Source: Eledone cirrhosa
Taxonomy: Eukaryota
Direction: 5' to 3'
Length of the DNA stretch: 64,000 bases
Assembly: GCA_964016885.1 (NCBI GenBank)
Contig: OZ024741.1
Location: 107,756,001-107,820,000 of the forward strand
Shown: positions 55,803 to 60,225 of the stretch, one piece after another
Layout: each line of letters starts with the position of its first letter
How positions within the stretch are numbered: the first letter of the stretch is position 1
Made by a program: the position numbers and the translations under genes
Notes under the pieces: generated by a model
The model's database searches: none
Seen by the model: the letters and a program-made list of their open reading frames with translations, nothing else
What the model was told of the DNA's origin: nothing

Positions 55803-55876
<74 letters not shown>

Positions 55877-55960
55877 CTTTGAATAAGTTTGAAATGTTTT
55901 GGCCAGTATTGGCCCAGGCCATGTCTAACTTAATAGCACCACCTGGCGAAGTCTTTCAAT

Positions 55961-57472
55961 TCAGGATTTGGGCACCATGGCCCATTCGAGAAGAGAATTA
56001 CTGTTTGCCGGTTCATATCCGGGTGTGGGTGGTTTGTCCGGGATTACTTGGAGGAATTTGTCCAAAGACTTCTTGAATTTTGTGTGGTCAGTTTCTGTTT
56101 TGACGTGTCCTGGTGTGATGTTGAAGAGAGCAGGGCCAATTGAGGTGAAATAATTGTGCCGTATTGTTGTTATGAGTTGCGATTTAGATTTTTGTTTGGG
56201 ACGGATAGCACGGGGCCCAAGCCTTGGGTGTATTTTGAAGGTGATGCCAACATCATTTGGGCAGTGATGATGAAACATTTTCCACATCATGCAGATAATA
56301 TAACGCTCACGGCGACGTTGGAGTGAGTAAAGTTTCAGCTTTTCTAGTCGACCCCAGTAGTCAAGGTCTGACATGCCATCTATCTTTTTCGTGATTGCCC
56401 TTTGAGGAGCTTCAAGTTTCATGATACTTTGTTTCGTGTGGGGAGACCACAGTGGACAACAGTATTCAAGGTGTGGTCGGGCAAAAGTAGAGAAGAGAAG
56501 GATAATGGTGTGGGAATCTCTCGGCTGGAAGGTTCTGAGGATCCAGGAACACATTCTGCGGGCCATGTCAACTTTGCTGCTTATATGCGTGGCCCAGCTT
56601 ATGTTGCTGTCCACGGTTACTCCCAAGTCTCTGATGTTGTTAGATGCCACGAGAGTTTCACCGGAGGGAAGGGAGTACGGGAGTTTCAGAGCATCCTCTT
56701 TTCCAAAGTGGATCAGTTCGAATTTGTCTTCGTTCAGTAACATGTTGTTCTTTTCCGCCCATTGGGTAACAGCCAGTAGGTCTGACTGAAGGCTTATCCG
56801 GTCATCCACGCCATTGATGACCTTTTGGAGCTTGGAATCATCAGCGAAAATTTTAATGTTGCTGTGTTTGATGAGATCAGTGATGTCATTAATATAGATG
56901 ATGAAGAGAAGTGGGCCCAACACAGTGCCTTGTGGGACCCCACTACTGACTTTGGCTGGGTTGGATTTGACTCCTTCAACTACAACATGTTGGGTTCTGT
57001 TTGACAGGAAGCTCTTGATCCACTGCAGCAGCTTCCCAGTGCAACCAATATTGGACAGTTTTCTCAGTAGAATGTTGTGATCAACCCTGTCAAAGGCCTT
57101 GCTGAAATCAAGGTAGATAACATCAGTGTTGGAACCCACTCCCAAGGCTCTCAAAATGTCATCAAAGTGATGCAGTAGCTGCGTCAGGCAATCCCTTCCA
57201 TTACGGAATCCATGCTGGTTGGAGTTCAGCATATTGTTACTCTCAAGGAAGTGGGTCATTCGCGATCTCACCACTCTCTCGAATACCTTAATGATATGAG
57301 AGGTGAGTGAGATTGGACGGTAATTCACGGCAAGGGATTTGTTTCCTTTTTTGAAAACTGGGACAACAGACTGGGATAGAAGGTTTTCTGGCACATATCC
57401 AGCATCCAGTGAGTTCCGCCACAGATTGGCTAGAGGAGATGCAAGTTGGTGTTGACACGCCTCAAGACACAA
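55961..57472 (-). CDS. LINE ORF2 reverse transcriptase part, separated from the endonuclease part by a 1-nt deletion near 57462
   Basis: NYRPISLTS, QHGFR, YLDFSKAFD, SGVPQGTVLGPLLF, FADD, RDLGV, RPHLEYC, LYSLQRRRER. Confidence 0.93.
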   Translation of the reverse strand: MCLEACQHQLASPLANLWRNSLDAGYVPENLLSQSVVPVFKKGNKSLAVNYRPISLTSHIIKVFERVVRSRMTHFLESNNMLNSNQHGFRNGRDCLTQLLHHFDDILRALGVGSNTDVIYLDFSKAFDRVDHNILLRKLSNIGCTGKLLQWIKSFLSNRTQHVVVEGVKSNPAKVSSGVPQGTVLGPLLFIIYINDITDLIKHSNIKIFADDSKLQKVINGVDDRISLQSDLLAVTQWAEKNNMLLNEDKFELIHFGKEDALKLPYSLPSGETLVASNNIRDLGVTVDSNISWATHISSKVDMARRMCSWILRTFQPRDSHTIILLFSTFARPHLEYCCPLWSPHTKQSIMKLEAPQRAITKKIDGMSDLDYWGRLEKLKLYSLQRRRERYIICMMWKMFHHHCPNDVGITFKIHPRLGPRAIRPKQKSKSQLITTIRHNYFTSIGPALFNITPGHVKTETDHTKFKKSLDKFLQVIPDKPPTPGYEPANSNSLLEWAMVPKS

Positions 57473-59079
57473 GCAGGGAACCTATCGGGACCTACTGCTG
57501 AATTATGCTTGATTTCCTTTATTGCCGCTAAGACATCAGGGGCGCCAAACGTTATGTCCGATAAGGTGTAATGGGGAGTAACATCGCCGATACAGCCCAG
57601 ATCGGCCATATCAGGATTGCTGAAAACAGAGCAGTATTGTTTCTGCAGTATCTCACCCATGGTTTTAGCATTGTCTTGAAGAGTGCCATTTTCATCAATT
57701 AGAGGGCCAACAGTAGAGCCAGTGATTTTGTGTTTTTTTGCAAATGAAAAGAACACTTTGGGATTGAGTTTGATCTTCTCAATGGCCCAGGCCTCTTCAG
57801 CTCTTCTCTGATTGTTGATGATAGACATTATGTTGTTTTGGAGGTTATGTTTTTTAATCTCTAGTGATGAAATGGCAGTCAAGTTTATGTGTTGCTGCTG
57901 ACAGTATTTCAGCTTGTTGATTTTTTTGTTCGCTCTCTTAATTTTCCTGATGAGCGTTTTTCTATTTCTAGGGATTCTGCTCTTAGATTTGTTTATAGTT
58001 CTTAATGGGGTGTGTTTTGCACACGTGTTTGTAAGATTGTCCACAAATGTCTGACAGGACTTTTTGATGTTAGTGGGTGTATGAGTGTGCGTGAAGGACC
58101 AGTCGACATGTGCAAGATCATGACTGATCGCTTCCCAGTTTGCATTGTGGAAATCCATAGCGTCAAACGGATGGACAGGAGAGATGACATTGGGTTTGTA
58201 TATTGGACGGTGGAATCTCAGATCACAGAGAACCATGTCATGATCAGAGAGTAGAGTTTTCTCCACTGCAATATTGTGGATATTGTCAGTGTGATTGCTG
58301 AAAATTAAGTCTAGGACGTTTTTGTGGCACCTCGTTGGTTCGAGCACCAGTTGGGACAGGAAGAAATCATCCATGAAGTCAAGAAGCGATTCCACTGCTT
58401 CCCTGTCAGAGGTTGAGGCAGAAGAACCTGGTGGCAGGCTGTTTGTGGACCAGTCAACTCCGGGGAGGTTGAAGTCCCCCATCATTAAGATGTTGTCAGG
58501 GTGACACTCTTGGATGAAACACTTTATGCTGTTGAGGCATTCCTTGAAGCATGGTAGAGGCGTTTGGGGTGGCCTATAGAGCCCAACTACTATTAGGTTG
58601 TTGGTTTGACTGAATACAGTGACTGCTTCGCAGTATCCATTAGTAAATATGTTCATAGCCTCTGTTGAGAAAGAATTATGGACATAAATGGCAGTCCCAC
58701 CCTTTCTTCTGCCAGCGCGATCAGCACGGATGGCTTTGAAATTTTTCACTTTCACCTCGGCTTCCAAGTGGAGGTTACTGAGATGGGTTTCAGTGAGGAC
58801 GAAGAAAGGGATGTGGTTTGGATGGACATCAACCCAGTCCTCCAGGAATTTGATCTTCCATTTTTGAGTATTGGTGGAAGGGCTGAAGCCTTGGGCGTTA
58901 AGCAAAAATGTTGAGGCGAGAGTGGATGGTTTTAATTGTTTTGGTGTGTTGTTAATTTGTTTGTTTGTTAATGGCAGCAATGGGAGTTTGTGCAGTGGGG
59001 TGATAGTGGAGGGTGGTGCTGGGTGATAGCTCGAATGTTTTTTTCCAGTTCTTTTGCCAGATTCATTATGGCTAAAAAA
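57430..59079 (-). CDS. LINE ORF2 APE endonuclease part; frame open from the slippery site, with no AUG before the catalytic motifs
   Basis: LLNAQG, LTETHL, RADR..GG, YRPP, GDFNLP, LDLIF, SDH, GPD. Confidence 0.9.
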   Translation of the reverse strand, partial: FFSHNESGKRTGKKHSSYHPAPPSTITPLHKLPLLPLTNKQINNTPKQLKPSTLASTFLLNAQGFSPSTNTQKWKIKFLEDWVDVHPNHIPFFVLTETHLSNLHLEAEVKVKNFKAIRADRAGRRKGGTAIYVHNSFSTEAMNIFTNGYCEAVTVFSQTNNLIVVGLYRPPQTPLPCFKECLNSIKCFIQECHPDNILMMGDFNLPGVDWSTNSLPPGSSASTSDREAVESLLDFMDDFFLSQLVLEPTRCHKNVLDLIFSNHTDNIHNIAVEKTLLSDHDMVLCDLRFHRPIYKPNVISPVHPFDAMDFHNANWEAISHDLAHVDWSFTHTHTPTNIKKSCQTFVDNLTNTCAKHTPLRTINKSKSRIPRNRKTLIRKIKRANKKINKLKYCQQQHINLTAISSLEIKKHNLQNNIMSIINNQRRAEEAWAIEKIKLNPKVFFSFAKKHKITGSTVGPLIDENGTLQDNAKTMGEILQKQYCSVFSNPDMADLGCIGDVTPHYTLSDITFGAPDVLAAIKEIKHNSAVGPDRFPACVLRRVNTNLHLL

Positions 59080-59806
59080 GAGGAAGAAGTTTCCTGTTTA
59101 GGAGACTGTTGGTGACTGTGGTAGTGGTTATTTTTATGTAGTTTATGGTTTTTGTTTTTGCTTTTATTTTTATTTTTATTTTTATTTTCATTTGTCCGAC
59201 GGGTCCCCGGGAGATGGGTAAAGGGACAATCCCGGTGTAAACACAATCTATCTCGCAGGGAAAAGCGGCAGATTTGTGGATTCCTTGTTTGAGTTATTGG
59301 TGGTTGTGTTGGTGTTAAATTAGAGTATGTATTATGGTGGTGGCTGTTTGTAGGGATAGACCGTTTTGTCCTAGGTAAATGGATGAATTTGCAGCCACTA
59401 TCCATACATATTCTATAGCGTAGAGAGTAGCGGCAAATGATGGGGTTTCGAGTGGGTGTGTATGTGTGTGTGTGTGTTGTGAGAGGTGTAGATGATGGTT
59501 TGAGTAGGTTTTGACGACCTTTGTGGGCTGTGGGAGGGAGAGTTCTTGTACTGGTATTAGAAGGTAAATTCCTTGAGATAGCAGTAGGCAAAGATGTTGT
59601 AGTAGTAGTAGTAGTAGGCAGAGAAGATGTTGGCAGTGGTGATGATTGGACTGCTGGGCCAGAGAAAGGAAGTGGTGTTTCCTGCTGTGAGATAGAGGCT
59701 ACTGGGAGGTCAATAGTTTCATTTAGTAGATCGGCCATTGTTGATGAATCAAGGAGTGGTTCACACTGTTGTTGTTGTTGTCGTCGTTGTTGTTGTTGTT
59801 GTTGCC

Positions 59807-59840
<34 letters not shown>

Positions 59841-60098
59841 GACAGCATCCGAAGAAAAAACACACCGTAGTTTATCCAAATGTTTATTGATTAATTTAAA
59901 AGCAACTTCGATTTGCTTTAATTTATTTTGAATCTGTTGTTCAGATCGGGTTTTCAAAAGGTGAACTGTACGTTTAGCAATGGCGTTCAGACATGAAGCA
60001 TCTATGTCTTCTGTTTGGGTAAGGCAATGCCATGTGTTTATTATAATGTCGATTTCATAATCAGACCAGTTCTGTTTGGATTTTTGCTGGTTAGCCAT
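58968..60098 (-). CDS. LINE ORF1 (376 aa from MANQQ): Myb/SANT-like N-terminus, polyQ, two CCCH-type zinc fingers
   Basis: WSDYEIDIIINTW..IA..RSEQQIQNKLK; CRYSLRYRICMDSGCKFIH; CRFSLRDRLCLHRDCPFTH. Confidence 0.8.
59073..59079 (-). promoter_or_regulatory. Candidate -1 ribosomal frameshift slippery site U_UUU_UUA
   Basis: tcT TTT TTA in ORF1 phase; -1 frame has TAA at 59100-59098 and is then open into the endonuclease. Confidence 0.7.
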
Positions 60099-60134
60099 TC
60101 TAGTTTTGAGTGTGTGTGTTTTAGTTAAGTATTT

Positions 60135-60225
<91 letters not shown>

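What the first reader, a model, noticed from the sequence alone, without database searches (positions are those of the whole stretch)
57430..60098. CR1-like LINE whose ORF2 has no usable AUG and is entered through a U_UUU_UUA -1 slippery site
Seen: ORF2 is in the -1 phase of ORF1. Its frame opens after TAA (59100-59098), the in-phase T_TTT_TTA lies seven codons later (59079-59073), and ORF1 ends 34 codons after it. The first ORF2 Met (..EAMNIF) lies beyond the conserved endonuclease N and E motifs (LLNAQG, LTETH). Known: LINE ORF2s are generally explained by termination-reinitiation or unconventional initiation rather than -1 frameshifting. Inference: an ORF1-EN-RT fusion made by programmed frameshifting.
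Basis: partly seen in the sequence, partly recalled or inferred. Interest (0 to 1): 0.82.

Follow-up and report, generated by a model that had tools for sequence, protein, structure and literature searches.

The report
LINE clade keeps HIV-type frameshift site
This jumping gene (a LINE) has no start codon ahead of the first catalytic residues of its enzyme gene, and it and most of its distant relatives carry the same seven-letter slippery sequence that HIV uses, in the same reading phase, so ribosomes likely slip back one base there to make a fused protein, which is untested but would be a different answer to how LINEs make their reverse transcriptase.

Summary
Observation confirmed. ORF2 is in the -1 phase of ORF1, and U_UUU_UUA is in phase. 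The first ORF2 AUG (residue 148) lies past the residues matching L1 endonuclease N14 and E43.

The site is exact in 92 of 99 distinct family copies spanning it, plus 3 changed only outside the heptamer. It is exact in 9 of 17 decayed copies of a 71%-identical subfamily. A second family in this genome (30% amino-acid identity) also has it.

In an endonuclease-defined clade (median 32% identity), 21 of 25 informative elements carry it in phase and none out of phase; about 0.5 are expected from the amino acids alone. It lies a median 4 codons after the ORF2-frame stop, and that frame stays open from there to the endonuclease.

Best reading: programmed -1 frameshifting (0.85), inferred, with no translation data. 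Against: no conserved downstream structure. Splicing is unsupported.

-1 shifting was already proposed for Dictyostelium TRE5-A/TRE3-A. This scan noted similar sites on other DNA (e1-9568866, e1-8041403). The window copy itself is broken at about 57462.

The parts
55875..60140 (-). Near full-length copy of a young LINE family (family A), flanked by (TA)n on both sides; ends approximate
   Evidence: copies are 96-98% identical; the DNA search had 1247 first-look candidates, 40 scored
58968..60098 (-). ORF1, 376 aa: Myb/SANT-like N-terminus, poly-Q, two CCCH-type fingers, C-terminal tail
   Evidence: PF13837 E=0.003, below Pfam cut-off, scored on intact copy L064
59379..59435 (-). ORF1 CCCH-type finger 1 (C-x8-C-x4-C-x3-H)
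   Evidence: read by eye from the translation; relatives show like motifs; no Pfam hit in this copy
59214..59270 (-). ORF1 CCCH-type finger 2
   Evidence: read by eye from the translation
59098..59100 (-). TAA closing the ORF2 frame upstream of the site
   Evidence: kept in 29 of 29 other copies aligned
59073..59079 (-). In-phase slippery heptamer U_UUU_UUA, the predicted -1 shift site; predicted transframe peptide ..SSSF(L/F)SHNESGK..
58968..59072 (-). Dual-coding overlap: 34-codon ORF1 tail (predicted amphipathic helix starting at F-L) over the ORF2-frame linker
58897..58899 (-). Endonuclease motif I Asn (N67 of the ORF2 frame), aligns with L1 N14
58789..58791 (-). Endonuclease Glu (E103), aligns with L1 E43
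   Evidence: its catalytic role in L1 is recalled
58654..58656 (-). First ATG of the ORF2 frame (M148), inside the endonuclease
57430..59097 (-). ORF2, 5' part: linker and APE endonuclease
   Evidence: PF14529 E=5.5e-14, PF03372 E=5.7e-8
57461..57463 (-). One-base deletion private to this copy, breaking ORF2
   Evidence: absent from 28 of 28 other copies covering the spot
55961..57481 (-). ORF2, 3' part: reverse transcriptase
   Evidence: PF00078 E=6e-32
55875..55960 (-). Short 3' UTR ending in about two imperfect copies of a ~10-nt unit, then (TA)n

Best explanation
The endonuclease-reverse transcriptase of this LINE is likely made by a programmed -1 ribosomal frameshift at the in-phase U_UUU_UUA at 59079-59073, which would fuse most of ORF1 to ORF2. 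Most ribosomes would read through, add the 34-residue ORF1 tail and stop at 58968, giving abundant ORF1 protein. A minority would slip back one base with tRNA-Phe in the P site and tRNA-Leu (or an empty A site) at UUA. They would read a roughly 60-residue linker and enter the endonuclease, giving a protein of about 1380 residues: Myb-like domain, CCCH fingers, linker, EN, RT, without the ORF1 tail. This would set a high ORF1:ORF2 ratio, as Gag to Gag-Pol. Shown: frames, missing AUG, position, phase and conservation of the heptamer, open linker. Inferred: that ribosomes shift there, the efficiency, the fusion product and any stimulator. With no conserved downstream structure, the shift likely rests on the intrinsic slipperiness of the site, perhaps helped by slow UUA decoding or by lineage-specific structure.
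For: (1) No AUG before N67/E103. (2) Family A: exact 18-nt context in 92 of 99 distinct copies spanning the site; 3 more differ only outside the heptamer and 4 differ in it (120 loci, 10 duplicates and 11 truncated set aside). (3) Old subfamily, about 71% nucleotide identity, picked by a pattern upstream of the site: 9 of 17 exact, 7 with 1-2 scattered changes, 1 no longer element sequence. Spacing is 6 nt shorter but the phase is kept. (4) Family B, 30% EN identity: TTTTTTA in 17 of 24 copies covering the site, 6 of 30 not covering. Same -1 layout, no AUG before motif I in the intact type. (5) EN clade of 30 tips (FastTree support 0.999, median 32% identity): 21 of 25 informative elements exact and in phase, 0 out of phase; 18 of 20 clusters at 50% identity, 7 of 8 at 40%. 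(6) The residue before F-L varies (S, N, H, A, D, P) but its codon ends in T in all 21; 0.5 exact heptamers expected from each element's codon usage. (7) The ORF2-frame stop lies 0-26 codons (median 4) before the site. Upstream the frame has 174 stops in 1851 codons; downstream it is open 60-196 codons to motif I; joint shuffle probability about 1e-24 if the loci were independent. (8) FF[S/R], the ORF2-frame reading of the site, in 4 of 16 long leaders of homologous proteins against 0.11 expected, reached in 1 of 5000 shuffles. (9) U_UUU_UUA is the HIV shift site, giving Leu/Phe heterogeneity (PMC5009743, passage seen).
Against: No stimulatory structure here: z=+0.16 for 123 nt downstream. Across 21 loci mean z is -0.8 (60 nt) and -1.0 (90 nt), with only 4 and 6 below -2; pseudoknots were not modelled. 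4 of 25 informative clade members lack the exact site: L179 G_UUU_UUA, L206 U_UUU_UUG, L178 U_UUU_CUG, and L199 has neither site nor -1 layout. 8 of the 21 have an ORF2-frame ATG somewhere before motif I. ORF1 always stops 1-24 codons before motif I, at -1 in 11 of 21, which frameshifting does not require and reinitiation would use. Per-locus open-frame probabilities are weak (0.23 for this family), and joint values ignore shared ancestry. Family A conservation alone says little because the copies are young.
Confidence: 0.85

Rival explanations
1. Termination-reinitiation or non-AUG initiation: ribosomes finish ORF1 and restart ORF2 at a near-cognate codon close to the ORF1 stop, as described for SART1 and L1. 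The heptamer would then only encode a conserved F-L.
For: It is the mode supported by experiment in LINEs (PMC2881922 passage; PMC5009743 passage on AUG-independent L1 initiation). The ORF1 stop is 1-24 codons before motif I in all 21 site-bearing elements. Family A has TTG/CTG codons in the ORF2 frame 2-3 codons before the ORF1 stop.
Against: It does not explain synonymous-site fixation of T_TTT_TTA (21 seen, 0.5 expected) or an ORF2 frame that is open back to, and closes just before, the heptamer. There is no UAAUG-type junction. 12 of 21 have no AUG/CUG/GUG/UUG/ACG from 10 codons before the ORF1 stop to 4 codons before motif I. ORF1 staying open can reflect a functional helix plus Q/P-rich tail. 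It could coexist as a minor route.
Confidence: 0.07
2. Polymerase slippage: RNA polymerase II adds one U in the T6 run in a fraction of transcripts, and ordinary translation gives the same fusion.
For: 2 of 99 genomic copies carry seven Ts at the site. Modest RT slippage at the HIV site is mentioned in PMC5009743.
Against: Slippage needs no codon phase, yet 21 of 21 sites are in one phase and none out of phase. The run is only six T, whereas the review cites runs of 9 for efficient bacterial slippage. The seventh base A is fixed.
Confidence: 0.04
3. Splicing: TTTTTTAG is a 3' splice acceptor, and a donor inside ORF1 joins ORF1 to ORF2 in frame.
For: 19 of 21 sites are followed by G, giving a U-tract plus AG. 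The 14 nt upstream are 71% pyrimidine in family A.
Against: The needed phase-2 GTRAG donor would be a stop codon in ORF1: 0 of 12 GTRAG matches are in that phase and 0 of 21 loci have one. Upstream pyrimidine content is 0.14-0.71, mostly below 0.5. C never appears in the tract although TTC and CTA would keep both F-L and an acceptor. 0 of 110 distinct genomic copies begin or jump at the AG, where reverse-transcribed spliced RNA would show. Contigs of runs guessed to be RNA bridge the site, with no listed GT..AG joint (weak: RNA status is a guess and some rows were hidden).
Confidence: 0.03

Closest known systems
HIV-1 gag-pol -1 frameshift site (U_UUU_UUA; PMC5009743, passages seen)
   Same: Identical heptamer, in phase, usually followed by G; a nucleic-acid-binding first ORF with zinc fingers overlaps an AUG-less polymerase ORF in the -1 frame.
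   Different: Non-LTR element with no protease to cut the fusion. No stable downstream stem-loop found here (the HIV stem-loop is recalled). Shifting is not demonstrated.
Dictyostelium TRE5-A and TRE3-A non-LTR retrotransposons (PMC5911963, figure legend seen)
   Same: APE-type LINEs stated to need a -1 frameshift for ORF2.
   Different: Amoebal, tRNA-gene-targeting elements with a C-terminal zinc finger. The passage gives no slippery site or experiment. Here a specific heptamer is conserved across a clade at about 32% identity.
SART1 (UAAUG coupling) and mammalian L1 ORF2 initiation (PMC2881922, PMC2699510, PMC5009743, passages seen)
   Same: Bicistronic LINE RNA; ORF2 made at low level and dependent on ORF1 translation.
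   Different: They make a separate ORF2 protein by reinitiation. Here there is no stop-start junction, the ORFs overlap by 34-174 codons beyond the site, and a fusion is predicted.
CR1/L2-lineage LINEs with PHD-containing ORF1 (PMC4120745, passages seen)
   Same: APE + RT with no other Pfam domain in ORF2; PHD in ORF1 of relatives (L182 passes the Pfam cut-off); short 3' UTR with a tandem unit.
   Different: CCCH fingers and a Myb-like domain are not mentioned in that paper's main text (0 hits for CCCH and Myb), nor is frameshift. Clade membership was not tested by tree against named references.

Membership tests
Programmed -1 ribosomal frameshift site (retroviral type) | X_XXY_YYZ heptamer in phase with the upstream ORF | tested here: met
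   T_TTT_TTA at 59079-59073
Programmed -1 ribosomal frameshift site (retroviral type) | Downstream ORF in the -1 frame, open from the site, with no start of its own before essential residues | tested here: met
   first ATG at residue 148, after N67/E103; 13 of 21 site-bearing clade members have no ATG before motif I
Programmed -1 ribosomal frameshift site (retroviral type) | Site conserved beyond amino-acid need | tested here: met
   21 of 25 exact against 0.5 expected; none out of phase
Programmed -1 ribosomal frameshift site (retroviral type) | 3' stimulatory stem-loop or pseudoknot 5-9 nt downstream | tested here: not met
   z=+0.16; +0.15 and +0.68 for this family, clade means -0.8 and -1.0. 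Nested structures only; pseudoknots not modelled
Programmed -1 ribosomal frameshift site (retroviral type) | Transframe product or heptamer-dependent reporter output | not testable with these tools
   no ribosome profiling, proteomics or assay available
APE-type non-LTR retrotransposon | ORF1 followed by ORF2 with APE endonuclease and RT; dispersed, often 5'-truncated copies | tested here: met
   truncated copies
CR1 clade | RT phylogeny groups with named CR1 references | not tested
   no named CR1 references were retrieved; homologues are unnamed or hypothetical
CR1 clade | ORF2 without RNase H or C-terminal zinc-finger domain; short 3' UTR ending in a tandem unit (features recalled) | tested here: met
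   only EN and RT families on intact ORF2; tail. Shared with other CR1-group clades, so not diagnostic
SART1-type coupled termination-reinitiation | Overlapping or adjacent stop-start codons (UAAUG, AUGA) | tested here: not met
   no ORF2-frame ATG within about 100 codons of the ORF1 stop
2A/StopGo LINE ORF2 leaders | D(V/I)ExNPGP motif before the endonuclease | tested here: not met
   absent from the ORF2-frame leader; NPGP-type motifs occur in out-of-clade relatives such as P0007, L202, L211

The most novel reading that the evidence does not exclude
A widespread, old clade of animal LINEs makes its endonuclease-reverse transcriptase only as a Gag-Pol-like ORF1-ORF2 fusion, through an HIV-type U_UUU_UUA shift that needs no RNA stimulator. 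A second group uses A_AAA_AAC. Programmed -1 frameshifting would then be a main, overlooked route of LINE ORF2 expression, and most annotated ORF2 starts in these families would be wrong.
Probability: 0.6. Interest if true: 0.85.

Novelty: new variant of a known kind. Interest (0 to 1): 0.74.

Why it matters
How bicistronic LINE RNAs make ORF2 is described as unconventional reinitiation, based on two model elements (L1 and SART1). A 2016 review of frameshifting lists no LINE ORF2 case in the passages seen. A precise, deeply conserved slippery site makes the alternative testable with one reporter. If true, the active enzyme of these LINEs carries its own ORF1 nucleic-acid-binding domains. That would change models of RNP assembly, cis-preference and targeting, correct ORF2 annotation in many animal genomes, and give natural examples of U_UUU_UUA shifting without an obvious structure.

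Tried and rejected
ORF1 homologue search: none at E<=0.01 among the 8000 best candidates, near lengths only. The protein atlas gave no usable hit; neither shows absence. Searches of the own genome with EN queries from P0001 and P0107 returned family A again (judged by places and frame lengths; all 60 loci fetched aligned to family A); only the P0005 query reached a second family. A 24-sequence alignment was too diverse for the metagenome scan; an 8-sequence one worked, and 80 of 443 confirmed loci were returned. No RNA holder was listed for the stretch; this is not evidence on expression. Read layings used assembled contigs only and cannot show transcript ends, strand or level. The first FF[S/R] count (6 of 19) included three mis-located leaders (P0006, P0134, P0154) and was redone as 4 of 16. 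Copies with very long ORF2 frames (1217-1668 codons) are not fused single-ORF variants: L065 and L067-L070 are 5'-truncated copies reading in from (TA)n, and L066 is a long other-frame read-out. A downstream hairpin was rejected as stimulator for this family. Kojima 2005 (PMC1190309) and Alisch 2006 (PMC1356112) are not held, so they were seen only as citations; they may discuss frameshift-type junctions. No supplements were read. No structure or complex prediction was run.
Full report
Observation. On the minus strand ORF1 runs from ATG 60098 to TAA 58970-58968. A second frame opens after TAA 59100-59098 and is -1 to ORF1. TTTTTTA at 59079-59073 is T_TTT_TTA in ORF1 phase, the 7th codon of the open ORF2 frame, with 34 ORF1 codons after it. 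The ORF2 frame holds an APE endonuclease and, after a break, a reverse transcriptase. Its first ATG is residue 148. N67 and E103 lie upstream and align with N14 and E43 of solved L1 endonuclease chains, so initiation at that ATG would drop two active-site motifs (their catalytic role is recalled). The window copy lacks one base near 57462 that 28 of 28 other copies have. Intact copies have a 1045-codon ORF2 frame.

Own family. The element belongs to a young, abundant family in a 3.0-Gb genome, with copies 96-98% identical. In 29 other copies the heptamer, the upstream TAA, the 34-codon tail and the first ATG position were the same. Of 120 loci examined later, 10 were duplicates and 11 were truncated at or after the site. 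Of the 99 left, 92 had the exact 18-nt context, 3 differed only outside the heptamer and 4 inside it. So the layout is the family's and not a decay product, but young copies cannot show selection.

Older and distant relatives in the same genome. Loose contig ends pointed to a diverged subfamily. A pattern lying upstream of the site found 17 loci at about 71% nucleotide identity. The spacer is 6 nt shorter, so the phase is kept. 9 of 17 are exact, 7 carry scattered one- or two-base changes typical of decayed copies, and 1 has left the element. The ORF1 tail is kept at the amino-acid level. A query from a distant protein found family B, 30% identical in the endonuclease. It has the same -1 layout, no ATG before motif I in its intact type, and the in-phase heptamer in 17 of the 24 copies covering it; 6 of 30 did not cover it.

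Clade-wide test. A metagenome scan with two endonuclease patterns, independent of the junction, confirmed 443 loci and returned the best 80. I had seen their heptamer lists (output partly cut) before building the tree. An endonuclease tree of 80 of 82 sequences (L210 and L230 too short) has a clade of 30 tips containing families A and B (support 0.999, median identity 32%). Five tips are uninformative (L190, L192, L200, L212, L213: truncated or lacking motif I). Of 25 informative tips, 21 have TTTTTTA in phase in the ORF2 leader and none has it out of phase. Three have near variants over the same F-L (G_UUU_UUA, U_UUU_UUG, U_UUU_CUG), and L199 has neither site nor layout. By clusters, 18 of 20 at 50% identity and 7 of 8 at 40% contain an exact site.

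Protein constraint does not explain the site. The residue before F-L is S, N, H, A, D or P, yet its codon always ends in T; each element's codon usage predicts 0.5 exact heptamers in 21. The ORF2 frame closes 0-26 codons (median 4) before the site and has 174 stops in 1851 upstream codons, but it is open for 60-196 codons from the site to motif I. Codon-order shuffles give a joint probability near 1e-24. These joint figures treat loci as independent and are orders of magnitude only; for this family alone the value is 0.23. In a separate protein set, FF[S/R] occurs in 4 of 16 long leaders against 0.11 expected.

Mechanism. The pattern is what programmed -1 frameshifting leaves: ORF2-frame selection starts at a fixed-phase tandem-slippage heptamer, the same as HIV's (PMC5009743, passage seen). 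Predicted products are abundant ORF1 protein ending in an F-L-E-type amphipathic helix and a Q/P-rich tail, and a rarer fusion of about 1380 residues that swaps the tail for a linker, EN and RT. ORF1 here has a weak Myb/SANT-like hit and two CCCH-type fingers. Relatives have PHD plus CCCH-type fingers. The shift, its rate and the fusion are inferred, not shown.

Results against. No stimulatory structure was found: z=+0.16, clade means -0.8 and -1.0, and 4-6 of 21 below -2; pseudoknots were not modelled. Eight of 21 have an ATG somewhere in the leader, several within three codons of motif I. ORF1 always ends 1-24 codons before motif I, which reinitiation could use. However, 12 of 21 have no near-cognate codon there, and the ORF1 frame's openness is itself non-random, consistent with a functional tail. 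Splicing at TTTTTTAG was tested. The needed donor phase makes a stop in ORF1 (0 of 12 GTRAG matches), and no genomic copy of 110 starts or jumps at the AG. Contigs of runs guessed to be RNA bridge the site (weak). Polymerase slippage does not predict the phase lock.

What is known. Han 2010 (PMC2881922, passage) attributes ORF2 translation to unconventional initiation, from SART1 and L1. Atkins 2016 (PMC5009743; passages from the first 300,000 of 449,034 characters) mentions HeT-A, TART and L1 but no LINE ORF2 made by -1 shifting. PMC5911963 (figure legend) states that TRE5-A and TRE3-A need a -1 frameshift. PMC5405496 (passage) suggests +1 shifting or reinitiation for Paramecium LINEs. Term searches of PMC4120745, PMC13343379 and PMC11203168 found no 'frameshift'. 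Searches listed no paper describing this site; two returned nothing. The library lacks most subscription papers, Repbase notes and the two primary SART1/L1 papers, so an earlier remark in print is possible. This scan has noted like sites on other DNA (e1-9568866, e1-8041403); these are unchecked notes, seen after my own counts, and are not support.

Verdict. The feature is real and conserved far beyond chance. It most likely works as a programmed -1 frameshift (0.85). It is a new variant of a known kind: a known mechanism, proposed before for an unrelated LINE group, here with a defined site across a broad clade that is CR1-like by architecture but not placed against named references. Interest 0.74.

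Noticed in passing
L239, L245, L247, L249, L252, L218 (metagenome loci outside the clade): Of 10 out-of-clade loci with a long ORF1 in the -1 layout, 6 have in-phase A_AAA_AAC in the ORF2 leader, 1 has A_AAA_AAA and 3 have none. This may be a second LINE group using -1 shifting at a different heptamer.
   Followed up: partly
window 55875 and 60140; L061-L069; truncated copies: Family A copies sit in (TA)n-like repeats: 6 of 6 readable 3' ends and 8 of 11 truncated 5' ends, against about 7% dinucleotide repeat in the window. This suggests microsatellite-targeted insertion.
   Followed up: partly
window 59076-59072 and the 21 clade loci: U_UUU_UUA_G puts a UAG in the third frame, so a -2 or +1 slip would stop within one codon in 19 of 21 loci.
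   Followed up: no
clade loci L183-L198, family B: ORF1 stays open across the whole overlap (34-174 codons) and in 11 of 21 ends exactly on the L-N codons of endonuclease motif I. The tail is about 20% Q and 16% P after a predicted helix. This long dual-coding stretch is unexplained.
   Followed up: partly
window 60074-59877; L118 ORF1: Families A and B begin ORF1 with a Myb/SANT-like segment (weak Pfam hit in A, by eye in B), where metagenome relatives have PHD fingers. This suggests a domain swap upstream of shared CCCH-type fingers.
   Followed up: partly
window 59835-59770 and 59190-59150: ORF1 contains length-variable poly-Q and (AAAAAT)n tracts; the window copy has one more 6-nt unit than the 29 other copies aligned, keeping frame.
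   Followed up: no
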